From: a virus
Taxonomy: Duplodnaviria > Caudoviricetes
Reading direction: 5' to 3' (one strand)
Virus record (IMG/VR): IMGVR_UViG_3300049434_000096
Coordinates: 1 to 59,611 of that record
Length of the DNA: 59,611 bases
A program made the position numbers and the translations under genes. The notes below the pieces were generated by a model, which was given only the letters and a program-made list of their open reading frames with translations, ran no database searches and was not told where the DNA came from. Below are positions 12,176 to 46,762 of this stretch, one piece after another. Each line of letters starts with the position of its first letter. Position 1 is the stretch's first letter.

Positions 12176-12883
12176 TTAGGCCTTAGACTTTGTCTCGGCG
12201 GCGGCGGGACGGTCTGCCAGCGCCTCGGCCATCCCGACGGCGACGGGCGCGATGTGCCGCGTCGCCCAGGAAAGGGTGTGGTCGAGGTGGATCGGGATGC
12301 CGGCCTCGAACAGCCGCCGGCAGAAGAACGTATCCTCGCTCCCGGCCACGTCCAGGTCGTCGGTCAGGGCGAAGTCGAACATCGGGTAGATGCTGCGCCG
12401 GCCCTCTTTCGTCGCCTGCGCCTCGAGCCGCCCGATGATCGACATCCGCATCAGCACCATCGGAAAGCCGATCTGCAGGGCCTGGGCGACCCGCCCTTCC
12501 TCGGCGAACTGTTCCGGCGCGTATATGCGCTCGCCGTCCATCCCTCGCGCTGTAGGCAGATGCGGCCGCGACCTCGTCGGCTGGTTGATCCCGACCACGT
12601 CCCGGTCGACCATGAGAAGCCGGACCAGCGCCCACTCCGGAAAGACATGATCGCTGTCGAGCCAGAGCATGTAGTCTGCGCCCGACGCGATGCCGAGCTG
12701 AAGCAGGCGGTTGCGCACCATCGGCAGCTTGCCAATCTCGACCTTGGTGGTGAGCCGCGGCACGACCCGCTTGCCCGCGATCTCGACGCCGTCGGTCAGG
12801 GTCTTGGCGACCATCGCCGCGAGCGATTGGGCGAACCAGGCTTCGACCGTCCCGTCCGAGGGAATGGCGATGAAGACGTGCAT
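12176..12883 (-). CDS. GT-A fold (GT2-like) glycosyltransferase
   Basis: VFIAIPS, RNRL, YMLWLDSD (DxD), GSEDTFFCRR, IHLDH. Confidence 0.8.
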   Translation of the reverse strand: MHVFIAIPSDGTVEAWFAQSLAAMVAKTLTDGVEIAGKRVVPRLTTKVEIGKLPMVRNRLLQLGIASGADYMLWLDSDHVFPEWALVRLLMVDRDVVGINQPTRSRPHLPTARGMDGERIYAPEQFAEEGRVAQALQIGFPMVLMRMSIIGRLEAQATKEGRRSIYPMFDFALTDDLDVAGSEDTFFCRRLFEAGIPIHLDHTLSWATRHIAPVAVGMAEALADRPAAAETKSKA

Positions 12884-42698: not shown

Positions 42699-43178
42699 CT
42701 ATTCCCCCCGCTTCGACGCGGCGTTGCCGAGCCTGATCTCGTCGGCTTCGTGCACCACGGCGGCGAGCGCCGGCAGCAGCGGGCGGAACAGATCGCCGAG
42801 CGCGAGCGTGTCCTTGTGGCAGCGCTCGTTGTCGCGCATCCGGTCGAAATACTCGGTCGCGGCGTGCAGCATCGCGCTCACGGTCTGGAAGTCGTTCGCG
42901 CCTTCGATGGCAAGCGGGATCAGCAGGCGGCGGAAATGCCGGGCCAGCGCGTCGAGGGCGCGCTCATCCGCGAGCAGCGCGTTCCAGGCGTAGTCGAGCC
43001 GGAGCGTCGTCTCCTTGTCGCGGGCCTTGCGGACCGTCTTCTCGTCGCAGCCGATCCGCAGCGCGACGCGTGTTGGCCCCTCGAGATGGCACGGCTGGAG
43101 CAACCCGGCCGCCAGCAGATGCCGGGCGTCCTGTTCCGTCAGCGGTTCGATTGGCGGGCGGACACGCGCTGCGGTCAT
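42699..43178 (-). CDS. CII-like HTH regulator
   Basis: RVALRIGCDEKTVRKARD; position downstream of cro. Confidence 0.55.
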   Translation of the reverse strand: MTAARVRPPIEPLTEQDARHLLAAGLLQPCHLEGPTRVALRIGCDEKTVRKARDKETTLRLDYAWNALLADERALDALARHFRRLLIPLAIEGANDFQTVSAMLHAATEYFDRMRDNERCHKDTLALGDLFRPLLPALAAVVHEADEIRLGNAASKRGE

Positions 43179-43448
43179 GGCCTACCAGCCCCCCGACCAA
43201 ATGGAGGGACGATCAAAGCGAGCAGGACGAACCGGGAGCGGATCAATGGAGCCTCCCCGTCCAGCCGCGTCCCCAGCGCGTCGTCGCATAGAGCGCCGAG
43301 CCGGCCGACAGGATCGCGATCGCGGTGCAGGTCCAGACCCCGGTCATGCCGCGCCTCCGGCGGAGGAGTGGGCGTCGGACACCCCTCCACCTTTGGGGCG
43401 CGGCGGGCTATGGAGGGCCGGCCGCGAAGGGTTGCTGGAGCGGCGCAT

Positions 43449-43649
43449 CTATGCCGCCACCGCCGTCGATTCGGCTCCATATGTCAGCATGTACCGACGC
43501 ACCTTTTCGACGGTGGCGCGCCGCAATTCGCGGCCATCTCGGAGCTGGCCGATGAGGCGAGTGTCGTTCGCGGCCTTGCGGCCGAACGTGGTCTCCGCGA
43601 TCCCGTGGGCGTCGCGAAAAGCCTCGATCTCGGAAAGGAGGTCGTCCAT
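43449..43649 (-). CDS. Cro-like protein
   Basis: LLSEIEAF...IAETTFGRKAAND..LI..LRDGR; divergent from the repressor. Confidence 0.8.
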   Translation of the reverse strand: MDDLLSEIEAFRDAHGIAETTFGRKAANDTRLIGQLRDGRELRRATVEKVRRYMLTYGAESTAVAA

Positions 43650-43660
43650 CGCGCCGATAT

Positions 43661-43710
43661 GCGACGGATTAATCCGTCGCGTCAAGCGTCTCGTGACGGA
43701 TTTATCCGTA
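43661..43710. promoter_or_regulatory. Operator pair: GCGACGGATTAATCCGTCGC (43661-43680) and GACGGATTTATCCGTA (43695-43710)
   Basis: Palindromes between cro and repressor; the first fills the spacer after the minus-strand TTGACG; TTGATG-N17-CATAAG faces the repressor. Confidence 0.85.
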
Positions 43711-43751
43711 TGTTGATGCCGTCCGTCGCCGCCCCCATAAGCGGGATCGAA

Positions 43752-44198
43752 ATGGCGCGGGCGACTATAGACATCGAACGTGTGAAACAGGTCTTGCGCG
43801 AGGCCACGAAGGACGATGGCTCATTCAGCCAGCGCGGGCTACCGAAAGCCGCAGGGTTAGCTAAAGACGCCGTCTACGACATCATCGCCGGCCGAAACAA
43901 AAATCCTACGATTGCGACTCTTTCGTCCCTAGCGCAGGCGCTTGGAGGGAATCTTTCCATGTTCGGGCTGAGCCAAACCTTTGCACTTAGTGAAGAAGAA
44001 CTGCGCGCCGAACTGGAGGTGGCCCTGCCGCATATGCCGACGGCGGCATCGAGCCCTGCCGAGCAAGCTCAATATCTCGCCGAAGCCGTTGCAGGCGCTC
44101 TTGGGCTTCCGAGAACTGTACAAGCAGATCCTCCGAGACGGCCGGCGCGGCGCGGCAGGCCCGCAGCAGCCGTAGCTCCCTTTCCTCCCAAAGCCTGA
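43752..44198 (+). CDS. XRE-family HTH repressor (cI-like) lacking an S24 peptidase domain
   Basis: SQRGLPKAAGLAKDAVYDIIAGRNKNPTIATLSSLAQAL. Confidence 0.8.
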   Translation: MARATIDIERVKQVLREATKDDGSFSQRGLPKAAGLAKDAVYDIIAGRNKNPTIATLSSLAQALGGNLSMFGLSQTFALSEEELRAELEVALPHMPTAASSPAEQAQYLAEAVAGALGLPRTVQADPPRRPARRGRPAAAVAPFPPKA

Positions 44199-44467
44199 GG
44201 TGGATATTGAGGACTGCGCAATTCCGGTGGCACGGCTCGCACCCCGACTCGCAGCCGGGCTCCTCTAACAACAGGGGTTTCGTACTCGCCATTCCACTTC
44301 TCCAGCCCCATGTTCCTTTTCCGTTCTCCGAAGCTATTTCCAACATTGCAAGGCCAGAATTCAGGCGCCCCCGCCTGGCCGCCGGACACGCATGGGGCCG
44401 GACAGCCTGTCAGCGTACCGTAGTCTCCACAGGGCCGCCAGATACCCAAAAGGGGGTACGTGCGCGC

Positions 44468-44878
44468 GTGAAGACGGCCAATGTGGCCCATTGGGCGCTC
44501 GTAGCCGCAATCGCCTTAGCAGGCTGCGCCCGGCAGCCGTCGCCGGCCGAGCAGAACGCGCAAACCGCCGCGGGCTTGGCCGAGCTCAGGAGGCTCAGCG
44601 ACACTCTGAACCGCCTCGAGGCGGACGAACGAGCAAGGCGGCGGCCGCACGGTCGATCCGATTCGCGACCCAGGAGGGCGCAGCGCGAGGAGCCCGCTGA
44701 CCTGTGCTGGCAGGACTACTGCCCTTGCGAGCAGCCGCAGGGCGGGCCCGATGAGTTTCTATGCCGCCGGCTGCGGGCTGGGTTGCCAGTGGATGACGAG
44801 CAGATGTCGATCGGCGCGGGGATGCGCGATGCACGCCGCCAGATACGGGACTTCGAGGCCACGAACCCAGCCTATTGA
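44468..44878 (+). CDS. Lipoprotein with Cys cluster
   Basis: ALVAAIALAG-C lipobox; CWQDYCPC...LC. Confidence 0.65.
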   Translation: MKTANVAHWALVAAIALAGCARQPSPAEQNAQTAAGLAELRRLSDTLNRLEADERARRRPHGRSDSRPRRAQREEPADLCWQDYCPCEQPQGGPDEFLCRRLRAGLPVDDEQMSIGAGMRDARRQIRDFEATNPAY

Positions 44879-44890
44879 TGATGCTCTGGC

Positions 44891-45484
44891 TCACACAATT
44901 GCAGCCTCCACCGCCAGCCGAATCGCTTCGGCCACGCTTCCGACCCCAAGGCTCTGAAGCATTGCGGCCCGGTGCATTTTCACCGTCTCGACCGCCAGCC
45001 CAAGGCGTTCCGCAATCTGTCTGTTTCGATGGCCAGAGGCGAGCCCCCACAATATCTCGCGCCGACGCGGCGTAAGCTGGGCAACGAGCCGCCGCGCGGT
45101 TTCCCGCCGCCCTTCGGCGGCGACCAAGCCGACATCGACTTGAGAGCCCAGATAGAATGCCAGCTCGCCATCGTCGCCGAATACCGGCGCAACCATCATC
45201 GCGTTGCGAAACGCCGATCCGTCTCGTCGGTAGTTCCATATCTCGGTGATGGCAGGCTGGTGGGCGGCAACGGCGTGGCGGACGACGGCGCGCGCCGCTT
45301 CCTCGCTCATTGGGCCCTGAAGGAAGCGAGGGTTTCGGCCGATCGATTCGCCGGCCTCGTAGCCGGTGAGGTGGCTGAAGGCCTCGTTGACAGCGACCAG
45401 GGGATTATCGGGACGCCTCGGATCGGTGATCGCAAAGGCGATCCCACTGTCGGCTATTCCGCTCAACAATCCGTCCAGGTCCAT
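44891..45484 (-). CDS. EL222-like LOV + LuxR-HTH transcription factor, Cys-to-Pro LOV variant
   Basis: ITDPRRPDNPLVAVNEAF..LTGY, GRNPRFLQ, NYRRDGSAFRN, YLGSQ; LTPRRREIL..RNRQIA..LGLAVETVKMHR. Confidence 0.93.
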   Translation of the reverse strand: MDLDGLLSGIADSGIAFAITDPRRPDNPLVAVNEAFSHLTGYEAGESIGRNPRFLQGPMSEEAARAVVRHAVAAHQPAITEIWNYRRDGSAFRNAMMVAPVFGDDGELAFYLGSQVDVGLVAAEGRRETARRLVAQLTPRRREILWGLASGHRNRQIAERLGLAVETVKMHRAAMLQSLGVGSVAEAIRLAVEAAIV

Positions 45485-45519
45485 GCTCCATATACACATT
45501 TTCCGACCAACCAGTGCTC

Positions 45520-45573
45520 GACGGAGATATCCGTCATTTGATGCTTGACTGACGGATAAATCCGTCACATTAA
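45520..45573. promoter_or_regulatory. Operator pair: GACGGAGATATCCGTC (45520-45535) and TGACGGATAAATCCGTCA (45550-45567), with promoter TTGACT-N17-CATTAA
   Basis: Same GACGGA-N4-TCCGTC consensus as at cro/cI. Confidence 0.85.
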
Positions 45574-45598
45574 CGCTCCCCTGACACGGGGAGTTCGA

Positions 45599-45853
45599 AT
45601 GTTGCACGACCGGAAACATGTGGTGGGCGTGGCGGCCGGCGTGGCAGCCCTGATCGGCTGCGCGGGCCAGCCTGCCGTGGTTTACCGGTGCGTCGATGCC
45701 GGCACGGGCGAAAGCTTTATAGCGGTCAAGCGCAATATCTGGACGCCTCGGCGTTCGAATATCACCATCGTGGATGCGGAGGATGGCAGCAGGAGAATCT
45801 ATTCCGGCTCCTATCACATTACTTGCCGCCCGGCCGAGGGCTTGGCCCGATGA
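45599..45853 (+). CDS. Small lipoprotein-like protein
   Basis: GGGGAG SD; AAGVAALIG-C. Confidence 0.55.
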   Translation: MLHDRKHVVGVAAGVAALIGCAGQPAVVYRCVDAGTGESFIAVKRNIWTPRRSNITIVDAEDGSRRIYSGSYHITCRPAEGLAR

Positions 45854-46170
45854 CCGCCCCCGACCTCTCCGCCCTCACCCACGCCCAAGCCTCGGCGCTG
45901 GAGCAGATCGCCGGCGCTGCGATCCTGCAGATGCTGACGCGCCAGTCCAACGCGCGGGAAGCCATTGCGAACGGTGGAAGCGACCGCTGGGTAATCCAGA
46001 ACCATTTCGACCTTGCCGACGCTCAGCGCCTCGAAGCAGCGGCCCGCCAGTTCGAGCGCGCCGCCCATGACCGGGCGCTGAAGGCCGGGCGCGACGAGTG
46101 CATCGCGGCCCGGGTGATCCATGCCTTCGCGATCGAGGCGATGCGGGCGCCGATGGCGGTGGCGGCGTGA
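45850..46170 (+). CDS. Hypothetical protein
   Basis: ATGA overlap. Confidence 0.6.
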   Translation: MTAPDLSALTHAQASALEQIAGAAILQMLTRQSNAREAIANGGSDRWVIQNHFDLADAQRLEAAARQFERAAHDRALKAGRDECIAARVIHAFAIEAMRAPMAVAA

Positions 46171-46499
46171 TGGCCGAGTCCCTGATCTTCGAGCCCCACA
46201 ACGGCTTTGGCCGCGTCGATCCGTATGGCGAGCCGTGGCCGTTCGGCTACCTCAGCGAGGGGCCGGGCGCGCCGGTGTTCGAGTTGTCCGTGCCGCTGCC
46301 ACCGCACCCGGTCGAGAAGCTGCTCGACATCGCGCTCAAGGCGGCCGCAGCGCCGGAGCTTTACGAGGCGCTGGCTGCGCTCGTCGAGGAGCATGTCAAG
46401 CGCGGCGGCGCCTTCGATGAGCCGCTGGGATCGAGCGAGCAGACGCCGGAAATCAACGCCGGCATGGCCGCCCTCGCGAAGGCCCGGCCAGCGTGCTGA
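46170..46499 (+). CDS. Hypothetical phage protein
   Basis: AAAPELYEAL...AALAKA motif common in phage early genes. Confidence 0.65.
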   Translation: MAESLIFEPHNGFGRVDPYGEPWPFGYLSEGPGAPVFELSVPLPPHPVEKLLDIALKAAAAPELYEALAALVEEHVKRGGAFDEPLGSSEQTPEINAGMAALAKARPAC

Positions 46500-46762
46500 C
46501 CTCCCCCCCAACCCTGCGCGGCCTGCCCGGCATCGTGATCGCGGTGCTGATCTTGGCGATGGTGGTGTCGTGAGCGCGCTGCGGCAGGCTTTGATCGAGA
46601 CGACCGGGCGCGACGAGGCGCCGCGATGATCGCCCGCCTCCTCACCGCCCCCGACGGCAATCCGACTTGGCTCTCGACCGCGCTGGCCGGGCTGACCGTG
46701 TGCTTCGGCGCCGCGGCCGCGCTTTGGATGCAGTTCTGATGCCGCGAGCAGGATCGGGCATC

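What the first reader, a model, noticed from the sequence alone, without database searches (positions are those of the whole stretch)
43449..45600. Prophage immunity region encodes a LOV-HTH (EL222-like) sensor wired to the repressor operators
Seen: a complete LOV + LuxR-HTH one-component regulator lies between the cI-like gene and the early rightward promoter. Its upstream region carries two copies of the same GACGGA-N4-TCCGTC palindrome found at cro/cI. The geometry is mirrored. At each end one operator fills the spacer of the outward lytic promoter, and the other lies roughly 44-50 nt upstream of the start of an inward-facing gene (cI or LOV-HTH), as in lambda PRM. Known: EL222 is a blue-light-activated LOV-HTH transcription factor of Erythrobacter. 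Inference: the LOV-HTH is expressed in the lysogen under cI control and feeds light or redox state into phage or host gene expression, possibly lysis/lysogeny. I do not know of a characterised phage system like this.
Basis: partly seen in the sequence, partly recalled or inferred. Interest (0 to 1): 0.92.

Follow-up and report, generated by a model that had tools for sequence, protein, structure and literature searches.

The report
Cysteine-less LOV regulator in a prophage
A prophage of a soil Sphingomonadales bacterium carries, inside its repressor control region, a one-off sensor-regulator gene of the light/redox (LOV) type that lacks the usual light-reactive cysteine; the DNA sites beside it belong to the phage's own repressor system, so a link between light or redox and the phage life cycle is possible but unproven.

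Summary
A complete EL222-type LOV + LuxR-HTH gene (44891-45499, minus strand) lies in the immunity region of a 96%-complete provirus. Four GACGGA-N4-TCCGTC palindromes lie in two pairs, against 0.47 expected.

The "wiring" reading is only partly supported. The 2+2 operator layout, with a cro-like and a cI-like gene, is the conserved backbone of a phage family. I found it in 12 further complete cassettes plus one reduced one, and none of them has a LOV-HTH. A more distant relative has diverged cI/cro and a changed half-site (GCGGGA-N4-TCCCGC) in the same layout. The operators therefore track cI/Cro, not the LOV protein.

The LOV-HTH sits in a variable cargo slot that holds other genes in relatives. 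It is unusual in facing inward, with its start 20 or 35 nt from the inner operator, so repressor occupancy must affect its promoter.

The adduct cysteine is replaced by Pro57, while nine other LOV signature residues are kept. Its only close relative (58% identity) also lacks the cysteine (Leu).

No RNA data exist, and no phage-borne LOV-HTH appeared in GenBank phages or in my paper searches. I rate it a new variant of known kinds, of moderate interest.

The parts
43449..43649 (-). cro-like small regulator, 66 aa from ATG 43649 (MDDLL...)
   Evidence: Homologues at 45-69% identity lie beside cI homologues in 7 loci (6 viral contigs and L021) and 8 metagenome loci. The TTG start at 43685 would place O1 and the promoter inside the gene. 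PHROG hit is weak only.
43657..43685 (-). leftward early promoter (PL-like): -35 TTGACG 43680-43685, 17-nt spacer holding O1, -10 GCATAT 43657-43662. The ATG follows 7 nt after the -10, so the mRNA is probably leaderless.
   Evidence: Read by eye. The same CTTGAC / operator / GCATAT string is conserved in 7 of 7 aligned loci. Not reported by the consensus scan.
43663..43678 (.). operator O1, GACGGATTAATCCGTC
43695..43710 (.). operator O2, GACGGATTTATCCGTA (1 mismatch), 2 nt upstream of the candidate -35 of the cI promoter
43713..43741 (+). candidate cI promoter: TTGATG-17-CATAAG, with the ATG 10 nt downstream
   Evidence: By eye. Relatives have ATTGTG/ATTGTC at the same place after O2. Inferred only.
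43752..44198 (+). cI-like repressor, 148 aa, XRE-type HTH, no S24 peptidase domain
   Evidence: HTH_3 (E 5e-4) and HTH_31 (E 7e-4) are both below Pfam cut-offs. PHROG transcriptional regulator/repressor families score 3e-5 to 4e-3. Homologues at 39-54% identity occur in 20 fetched loci.
43987..44292 (-). conserved Cys-rich ORF (101 aa from ATG 44292; C-x3-C-x2-C-x3-C, then W.(R)EE.(R)LLR), convergent with cI and overlapping its last 212 nt
   Evidence: An ORF with the same motif is seen in the 6 viral relatives, L020 and 3 of the 4 cassettes listed. tblastn hits occur in 10 metagenome loci. The Cys motif lies outside cI coding sequence. No Pfam family. Atlas best score is 0.78.
44468..44878 (+). 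cargo ORF, 136 aa, with a lipoprotein-type signal (..LAGC) as read by eye
   Evidence: No Pfam or PHROG hit. No homologue in any relative locus.
44891..45499 (-). LOV + LuxR-HTH regulator (202 aa, or 197 aa from ATG 45484)
45329..45331 (-). codon CCT = Pro57 at the position of the flavin-adduct cysteine (GRNPRFLQ)
   Evidence: Alignment to EL222 and to 18 homologues. 56 of the 58 proteins returned have Cys here; the other two are this protein and P0002.
45490..45518 (-). candidate LOV-HTH promoter: weak -35 AGCACT (45513-45518), 17 nt, -10 GTATAT (45490-45495). The ATG 45484 follows 5 nt after the -10, so it may be leaderless.
   Evidence: By eye, by analogy with the family's GCATAT -10. Inferred, untested.
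45520..45535 (.). operator O3, GACGGAGATATCCGTC (inner distal)
   Evidence: An inner distal operator is present in all 6 aligned relatives.
45545..45573 (+). rightward early promoter (PR-like): TTGACT, 17-nt spacer holding O4, CATTAA
   Evidence: By eye. TTGAC(T)/TTGAG(T) followed by the operator is conserved in 7 of 7 aligned loci.
45551..45566 (.). operator O4, GACGGATAAATCCGTC (outer distal)
45599..45853 (+). first gene of the rightward early operon, 84 aa, lipoprotein-like signal, GGGGAG ribosome site 5 nt upstream
   Evidence: No family hit.

Best explanation
The four palindromes are the operators of the phage's own cI-like/Cro-like switch, in a layout conserved across a family of Sphingomonadales temperate phages. 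One pair sits between cro and cI. The second pair sits 0.76-3.2 kb away, at the promoter of the other early operon. Between cI (with its overlapping Cys-rich ORF) and the distal pair lies a variable cargo slot.

In this phage the slot holds a lipoprotein-like ORF and a LOV-HTH captured from a Sphingomonadales-type host lineage. The LOV-HTH is inverted relative to most cargo, so its start lies 20 or 35 nt from the inner operator O3. Its promoter must therefore overlap or abut O3/O4 and be set by repressor occupancy. The most likely form is a weak -35, cI-assisted promoter, with O3 centred about 43 nt upstream of a leaderless start at 45484, as at lambda PRM. That would make it a lysogen-expressed moron.

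The protein keeps the flavin pocket but cannot form the cysteinyl adduct. It would signal, if at all, through flavin reduction or photoreduction, as shown for other Cys-less LOV proteins. Its LuxR-type HTH has a recognition helix identical to that of host homologues. It therefore most likely binds EL222-type sites, not the phage operators.

Shown here: the architecture, the family conservation, the absence of LOV from relatives, the Cys-to-Pro change and the fold.

Inferred: the promoters, cI control, expression in the lysogen, flavin binding, the signal sensed and the targets.
For: Operators:
- 4 found against 0.47 expected, and exact copies are prophage-specific in the host MAG.
- The same 2+2 layout with cro and cI homologues occurs in 6 of the 16 viral contigs hit by the pattern. 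It also occurs in 6 metagenome contigs with both operator regions in view.
- L020 was found by cI homology, not by the pattern. It has three operators with at most 1 mismatch, a cI 45% identical, no cro hit and no LOV.
- L021 has more diverged cI/cro and a changed half-site in the same layout.
- The promoter-plus-operator strings are conserved in 7 of 7 aligned loci.

Cargo slot:
- SocA_Panacea in L028 and P63C in L033.
- Other unrelated ORFs, or nothing, in the remaining cassettes.

LOV-HTH:
- establish the domains, the EL222 match and the fold.
- Pro replaces the adduct Cys, while G54, N56, R58, F59, L60, Q61, N89, N99 and Q120 are kept. These correspond to the residue list of Yee et al. 2015 (PMC4682037, passages read).
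- Its sister P0002 is also Cys-less (Leu) and groups with it at 99/89 support.
- TVKMHR in the recognition helix is invariant across the 19 aligned sequences.
- The operators do not contain the EL222 consensus RGNCYWWRGNCY (PMC10521638 passage; by inspection).
Against: - No transcription data exist, so cI control and lysogen expression are inference.
- The consensus promoter scan reports none of my promoters.
- The proposed LOV promoter has a poor -35 (2 of 6), and its leaderless start is only one of two candidate ATGs.
- Which protein binds the operators was not tested. The cI HTH hits are below Pfam cut-offs.
- The relatives found by the DNA pattern are biased towards having the operators. 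Only L020 and L021 are independent of it.
- The context of P0002 could not be fetched, so a second phage-borne Cys-less copy is not excluded.
- Long branches for P0001 and P0002 (0.73 and 1.33) could mean relaxed selection rather than new function. Their pairing could also be long-branch attraction.
Confidence: 0.55

Rival explanations
1. The LOV-HTH is a phage decision sensor of the VqmA-phage type. Flavin reduction or light switches its DNA binding, and it activates a phage gene that counteracts cI (for example the conserved Cys-rich ORF or an early gene). This would couple induction to light or redox state.
For: - The domain logic is the same as VqmA-phage, a PAS-type sensor plus a DNA-binding domain encoded by a temperate phage next to its repressor (abstracts only; layout partly recalled).
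- The gene lies inside the immunity region, and a small conserved ORF of unknown function lies downstream on the same strand.
- EL222 can activate or repress depending on site position in synthetic promoters (PMC5001607 passages).
Against: - No EL222-type box lies near any candidate target. Exact RGNCYWWRGNCY gives 3 hits against 1.95 expected, none in 43000-46500.
- One-mismatch hits number 58 against 40 expected, with 2 of 100 shuffles as high. The nearest lies over the gene's own ATG at 45478-45489.
- The Cys-rich ORF is conserved in relatives that have no LOV-HTH, so it does not depend on it.
- The gene occurs in 1 of 14 cassettes (this one plus 13 relatives).
Confidence: 0.12
2. The LOV-HTH itself binds the GACGGA-N4-TCCGTC palindromes and acts as a light/redox-gated second repressor or co-regulator at both early promoters. 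This would be a natural version of the synthetic EL222 designs, with a site in the -35/-10 spacer giving repression and a site at the -35 giving activation.
For: - The positions of the palindromes match the two synthetic EL222 promoter designs (PMC5001607 passages).
- LuxR-type HTH dimers commonly bind inverted repeats (general knowledge).
Against: - The palindromes occur with cI/cro homologues in 13 cassettes that lack any LOV-HTH.
- The half-site changes where cI/cro diverge.
- The recognition helix is the same as in host homologues.
- The reported EL222 site is a direct RGNCY repeat that is absent from the operators.
Confidence: 0.06
3. It is a passenger without a role. The host gene was picked up by illegitimate recombination, lost its photochemistry, and is silent or decaying.
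For: - It is a single occurrence among the family's cassettes.
- The defining cysteine is lost.
- The branch is long.
- It converges head-on with the lipoprotein-like ORF with only 12 nt between the stop codons and no terminator found.
Against: - The 202-codon frame is intact.
- All 42 columns invariant in the 19-sequence alignment are kept, including the flavin-pocket residues and the HTH.
- The model is confident and superposes on EL222.
- The sister protein has a different substitution at the same site and is also intact, which fits a maintained Cys-less lineage.
- Natural Cys-less LOV proteins can signal (PMC4682037 abstract and passages).
Confidence: 0.15

Closest known systems
EL222 (Erythrobacter litoralis LOV-HTH; PDB 3P7N, 8A5R)
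   Same: - Same architecture and length.
- Sequence match E 4e-50 over residues 13-201.
- Model TM 0.90 and rmsd 1.9 A to the dark-state structure.
- Recognition-helix string TVKMHR is identical.
   Different: - The adduct Cys is replaced by Pro, so no canonical photocycle is possible.
- It is encoded by a prophage inside the immunity region.
- Targets are unknown.
- The EL222 consensus is not enriched in the phage.
Natural cysteine-less LOV-like proteins (Yee et al. 2015, PMC4682037)
   Same: It keeps the nine other conserved LOV residues listed there and lacks only the Cys. Pro is one of the replacements they report (passages read).
   Different: Their tested example is an archaeal BAT-type regulator. 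No LOV-HTH or phage example appears in the passages I read. Flavin binding is untested here.
Lambda-type immunity region (cI/Cro, OL/OR, PRM, rexAB cargo)
   Same: - Divergent cro and cI genes share palindromic operators.
- A second operator set lies at the other early promoter.
- Operators sit inside promoter spacers.
- One operator lies about 44-50 nt upstream of an inward gene.
- Accessory genes lie in the repressor cassette.
   Different: - The cI-like protein has no S24 peptidase domain.
- There are two operators per site, with a third in some relatives.
- A conserved Cys-rich ORF lies antisense to the cI 3' end.
- There is no sequence relation to lambda proteins.
VqmA-phage of vibriophage VP882
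   Same: A temperate phage encodes a PAS-type one-component transcription factor that feeds an environmental cue into lysis-lysogeny (abstracts).
   Different: - No homology was tested.
- VqmA-phage senses an autoinducer and drives the antirepressor Qtip.
- Here no ligand other than flavin is implied, and no target is known.

Membership tests
LOV domain (flavin-binding PAS photosensor) | PAS fold | tested here: met
   PAS_9 E 1.6e-12. Model pLDDT 89, matching LOV structures with rmsd about 1 A.
LOV domain (flavin-binding PAS photosensor) | Conserved flavin-pocket residues (YtvA G59, N61, R63, F64, L65, Q66, N94, N104, Q123, as listed in PMC4682037) | tested here: met
   G54, N56, R58, F59, L60, Q61, N89, N99 and Q120 are all present, read from the alignments.
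LOV domain (flavin-binding PAS photosensor) | Adduct-forming cysteine in GXNCRFLQ | tested here: not met
   The sequence is GRNPRFLQ, with Pro57. 56 of 58 homologues have Cys.
LOV domain (flavin-binding PAS photosensor) | Binds FMN/FAD and shows a blue-light photocycle | not testable with these tools
   Needs purified protein and spectroscopy.
EL222-type LOV-HTH transcription factor | LOV core, linker helix and C-terminal LuxR-type four-helix HTH in one roughly 200-aa chain | tested here: met
   GerE at residues 141-196 and PAS_9 at 30-123. Full-length alignment to EL222. TM 0.90.
EL222-type LOV-HTH transcription factor | Signal-induced dimerisation and binding to RGNCYWWRGNCY-type sites | tested here: inconclusive
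   The motif is taken from a PMC10521638 passage. Exact matches are 3 against 1.95 expected. One-mismatch matches are 58 against 40. None is informative, and binding itself is not testable here.
Lambda-like cI/Cro genetic switch | Divergent repressor and cro genes with shared repeated palindromic operators overlapping the promoters | tested here: met
   Conserved in relatives.
Lambda-like cI/Cro genetic switch | Repressor with an N-terminal HTH | tested here: inconclusive
   HTH_3 (20.5 bits, cut-off 23) and HTH_31 (20.2 bits, cut-off 27) fall below their cut-offs. PHROG regulator families score 3e-5 to 4e-3.
Lambda-like cI/Cro genetic switch | Repressor C-terminal S24 (LexA-like) self-cleavage domain | tested here: not met
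   No Peptidase_S24 hit at E<=0.01. It works like a cI but is not a member of the lambda cI family.
VqmA-phage-type phage sensor | Sequence homology to VqmA and an adjacent antirepressor target | not tested
   No VqmA sequence was compared. It is considered only as a functional analogue.

The most novel reading that the evidence does not exclude
A temperate phage has placed a cysteine-less flavin LOV-HTH under its own repressor's operators. In the lysogen it would then read cellular redox state or light through flavin (photo)reduction, and use that to tune host genes or its own lysis-lysogeny decision. That would be a natural counterpart of the synthetic EL222 promoter designs.
Probability: 0.15. 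Interest if true: 0.85.

Novelty: new variant of a known kind. Interest (0 to 1): 0.5.

Why it matters
Phage-encoded sensors that feed environmental cues into lysogeny are known for quorum signals. My searches of the paper library and of 50,697 GenBank phage records turned up none for a flavin, light or redox cue.

If this gene is expressed from the repressor-controlled promoter and is functional, it would be a first natural case. It would also be a natural Cys-less EL222 relative, of use to optogenetics and redox sensing.

Independently of the LOV gene, the comparison defines a family of Sphingomonadales temperate phages. The family has a fixed four-operator switch, probably leaderless regulators, a conserved Cys-rich ORF antisense to cI, and a hot spot for cargo genes. 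That makes it a tractable system for studying how morons are plugged into an immunity circuit.

Tried and rejected
- Recurrence in phages. The single protein against viral contigs found nothing. The 19-sequence alignment found 3 loci. L004 is a full LOV-HTH with Cys, lying between two near-identical ~305-aa ORFs that I read from memory as transposases, untested. L005 is a 484-aa LOV protein that reads by eye like a histidine kinase, not an HTH protein. L006 is a weak PAS-only match.
- GenBank phages. 4 records matched, all Listeria fragments covering 57% of the query. 0 covered at least 80%.
- cI-like protein. No match in viral contigs by peptide patterns or in GenBank phages. Relatives were reached through the genome search (3 of 401 Sphingomonadales-order genomes, including the host) and through the operator-pair DNA pattern.
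- Pattern hits that were not relatives. 10 of the 16 viral hits lacked both a cro and a cI homologue (L026 had one weak cI match). 109 of the 120 metagenome hits had no cI homologue. I treated all of these as chance or unrelated matches. L055 and L033 come from contigs of the same length, and L124 and L156 give identical hit statistics, so each pair may be one phage filed twice. I did not count L055 or L124 among complete cassettes.
The metagenome scan with P0002 found nothing. The genome-contig scan did not return it. Cluster look-up gave no accession. Its context remains unknown.
- Expression. No RNA holder was listed for this stretch, only one DNA run that may be the source.
The shared AGGCCTTAG lies at gene junctions (stop codon plus ribosome-site region) flanking the minus-strand ORF 12176-12883. 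Exact consensus matches are not enriched. I did not take them as targets.
- Host paralogue. No second full-length LOV-HTH was found in the 3.4-Mb MAG, only HTH-only or PAS-only partial matches. The MAG's completeness is not given.
- Cys-rich ORF. No Pfam family, and the Atlas best score of 0.78 is uninformative.
- GC3. The LOV gene (0.72) lies between the immunity genes (0.58-0.79) and the core genes (0.81-0.88). This says nothing decisive about recency.
- Papers. The original EL222 site-selection paper was not read. The consensus is quoted from a passage of PMC10521638. Supplements were closed and not consulted; they may hold the exact operator sequences of PMC5001607.


Full report
**What the window is.** The window is a whole IMG/VR provirus record of 59,611 bases, which CheckV rates 96% complete. 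It lies in a 310-kb contig of a Sphingomonadales MAG (L007).
- Minus strand: large terminase, portal, tape-measure, DnaB-type helicase and a DNA methyltransferase.
- Plus strand to the right: an exonuclease VIII-like gene and other early genes.
- The region 43449-45853 sits between the two divergent early operons and is the immunity region.

**Checking the observation.** GACGGA-N4-TCCGTC occurs four times with at most one mismatch, at 43663, 43695, 45520 and 45551. The expectation is 0.47, and 0 of 100 shuffles reach four. In the 3.4-Mb host MAG the three exact copies are the only exact ones. The six one-mismatch sites elsewhere equal the reversed-pattern control of 5.

The ORF 44891-45499 (-) carries PAS_9 and GerE domains. 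It aligns with EL222 from residue 13 to 201 at E 4e-50. A model built from a 19-sequence alignment has pLDDT 89 and pTM 0.86. It superposes on the EL222 structure 8A5R with TM 0.90 and rmsd 1.9 A over 197 columns.

The distances also hold. The O2 centre is 49.5 nt from the cI ATG. The O3 centre is 43.5 nt from the second in-frame ATG (45484). That is the start used by the public gene call, since P0001 is 197 aa.

**Gene map.**
- cro-like, 43449-43649 (-). The longer TTG-initiated frame would contain O1.
- O1 and O2.
- cI-like XRE-type protein, 43752-44198 (+). The HTH hits fall below Pfam cut-offs, and there is no S24 domain.
- Cys-rich ORF, 43987-44292 (-), overlapping the last 212 nt of cI.
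- Lipoprotein-like ORF, 44468-44878 (+).
- LOV-HTH, 44891-45499 (-).
- O3 and O4.
- An 84-aa lipoprotein-like first gene of the rightward operon, 45599-45853 (+).

**Who owns the operators.** This is the main result.

A protein search of 401 Sphingomonadales-order genomes found cI-like homologues in three, including the host.
- In G251 (L020) the cI homologue is 45% identical over 143 residues (E 6e-31). Three palindromes of the same family (at most 1 mismatch) accompany it. One fills the spacer of a rightward TTGAAT-17-TATATT promoter 1.45 kb from cI.
- L020 has no cro hit and no LOV-HTH.

A scan of viral contigs for two ACGGA-N4-TCCGT sites 12-22 nt apart returned 16 loci.
- Six of them (L022, L025, L028, L033, L035, L036) encode both a cro-like (51-61% identity) and a cI-like (43-51%) homologue. 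Each shows the same two-plus-two operator layout, with the pairs 0.79-1.9 kb apart.
- The same scan of metagenome contigs stopped at 120 rows. It gave 11 loci with cI homologues, of which six show both operator regions: L043, L062, L091, L105, L120 and L156.

None of these 13 cassettes has a LOV-HTH by tblastn at E<=1e-3.

In G271 (L021) the cI N-terminal region is 47% identical and cro 45% identical. The same layout is present, but the half-site is GCGGGA/GAGGGA-N4-TCCCGC/TCCCTA. So operator sequence changes where cI/cro change. The operators therefore belong to the cI/Cro pair. I cannot say which of the two binds, or whether both do.

**Promoters.** I aligned the seven loci on the operators.
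- A conserved leftward string, CTTGAC / operator / GCATAT, is followed after 7-11 nt by the cro ATG.
- A conserved rightward string, TTGAC(T)/TTGAG(T) followed by the operator, sits at the distal site.
- After O2 all seven have a TTG-type hexamer at the same offset.

These are by-eye readings. The consensus scanner, tuned to TTGACA/TATAAT, reports none of them. That alphaproteobacterial -10 boxes resemble CTATAT is recalled, not tested. The short distances to the ATGs suggest leaderless cro, cI and possibly LOV-HTH messages. This is inferred.

**The cargo slot.** Between the Cys-rich ORF and the distal pair, relatives carry varied content.
- Nothing beyond small ORFs: L025, L036, L043, L105.
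- A SocA/Panacea-domain gene with a small partner: L028.
- A P63C-domain gene: L033.
- Other unrelated ORFs.

In L022, L033 and L035 the cargo runs in the cI direction. It ends in a GC-rich hairpin followed by a T-run just before the inner operator (by eye).

The window is different. The LOV-HTH points inward from the distal pair, and its first ATG is 20 nt from O3. There is no room for an independent promoter. Any leftward promoter must overlap O3/O4 or be the weak -35 / GTATAT arrangement I propose. That arrangement places O3 near -43 of a leaderless start at 45484.

The gene is not what the operators are for. But its insertion point makes repressor control, positive or negative, hard to avoid.

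**The protein.** The alignment with EL222 and 18 homologues shows GRNPRFLQ where the family has GRNCRF.
- Of the 58 proteins returned at E<=1e-10, 56 have the Cys. The two exceptions are this protein (Pro) and its nearest relative P0002 (58% identity, Leu).
- In a maximum-likelihood tree of 57 of these (P0058, a 330-aa partial match, was left out), the two are sisters with 99/89 support. Both have long branches, so the pairing carries the tool's long-branch warning.
- The nine other residues that Yee et al. 2015 use to define LOV-like proteins are all present. That paper reports about 70 natural Cys-less entries, including Pro variants, and shows signalling through the neutral semiquinone (PMC4682037, abstract and passages).
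- The HTH recognition string TVKMHR is invariant in the 19-sequence alignment.

**Targets.** The EL222 consensus RGNCYWWRGNCY is quoted in PMC10521638. It is absent from the operators.
- It is not enriched in the phage: 3 exact matches against 1.95 expected, with 35 of 100 shuffles as high.
- With one mismatch there are 58 matches against 40 expected, with 2 of 100 shuffles as high.

I therefore think the protein acts on sites other than O1-O4. The host MAG has no other full-length LOV-HTH. Two host homologues that I fetched (L008 at 48% and L009 at 42% identity) sit next to ORFs that read by eye like a rhodopsin and a beta-carotene-cleaving Blh. This fits a light-linked role for the host family. 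It was not tested with family searches.

**What is known.** My two paper searches for a natural LOV domain or photoreceptor in a prophage found nothing relevant.
- 'LOV domain' plus 'prophage' gave 8 papers, none with both terms in title or abstract.
- 'photoreceptor / phage-encoded / blue light / lysogen' listed 10 of 113 papers, none on this.

GenBank phages hold no full-length homologue. The closest concept is VqmA-phage of VP882 (abstracts).

Jayaraman et al. 2016 built the two promoter geometries seen here with EL222 sites: a site in the spacer represses, and a site at the -35 activates (PMC5001607 passages). That is a striking resemblance, but the comparative data assign the natural sites to cI/Cro.

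**Verdict.** The finding is a single-instance cargo gene in a conserved immunity cassette. It is a new Cys-less variant of the EL222 family in a new (phage) setting. Expression, cofactor, signal and targets are all open. Interest is 0.5. The bold reading, a repressor-controlled flavin sensor feeding light or redox into phage or host regulation, has a probability of about 0.15.

Noticed in passing
window 43987-44292 (-); also L022 1879-2178, L028 5625-5930, L020 10164-10541, L062 5205-5492: A conserved ~100-aa ORF with C-x3-C-x2-C-x3-C followed by W.(R)EE.(R)LLR lies convergent with cI and overlaps its 3' end by about 200 nt in relatives of the family. The Cys motif lies outside cI coding sequence. 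It has no Pfam family, and the Atlas best score is 0.78. It may be a metal- or redox-linked partner of the switch.
   Followed up: partly
L021 2440-2520 (G271): A more distant cro/cI pair has the same three-operator layout but with the half-site GCGGGA/GAGGGA-N4-TCCCGC/TCCCTA. This is a natural specificity variant of the switch.
   Followed up: partly
L008 4653-7204 and L009 7980-10720: Host LOV-HTH genes (with the Cys) in two Sphingomonadales genomes lie next to ORFs that look by eye like a proteorhodopsin/xanthorhodopsin and a Blh-type carotenoid oxygenase. This suggests LOV-HTH control of a rhodopsin operon.
   Followed up: no
L004 3782-10562: The only other viral contig with a full LOV-HTH (51% identity, Cys present) has the gene between two near-identical ~305-aa ORFs that I take, from memory, for IS-type transposases. 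This hints at a composite-transposon-like route by which such genes reach phages.
   Followed up: no
L062 2144-2605 (-): In one relative the first gene of the operon leaving the distal operator pair is a 153-aa LuxR-type HTH protein without a sensor domain (by eye).
   Followed up: no
It overlaps the stop-codon and ribosome-site region. It looks like the flanks of an inserted gene rather than regulator boxes.
   Followed up: partly
window 44876-44893: The lipoprotein-like ORF and the LOV-HTH converge with only 12 nt between their stop codons. No terminator-like hairpin was found in 43300-46000, so their transcripts should collide or overlap.
   Followed up: no
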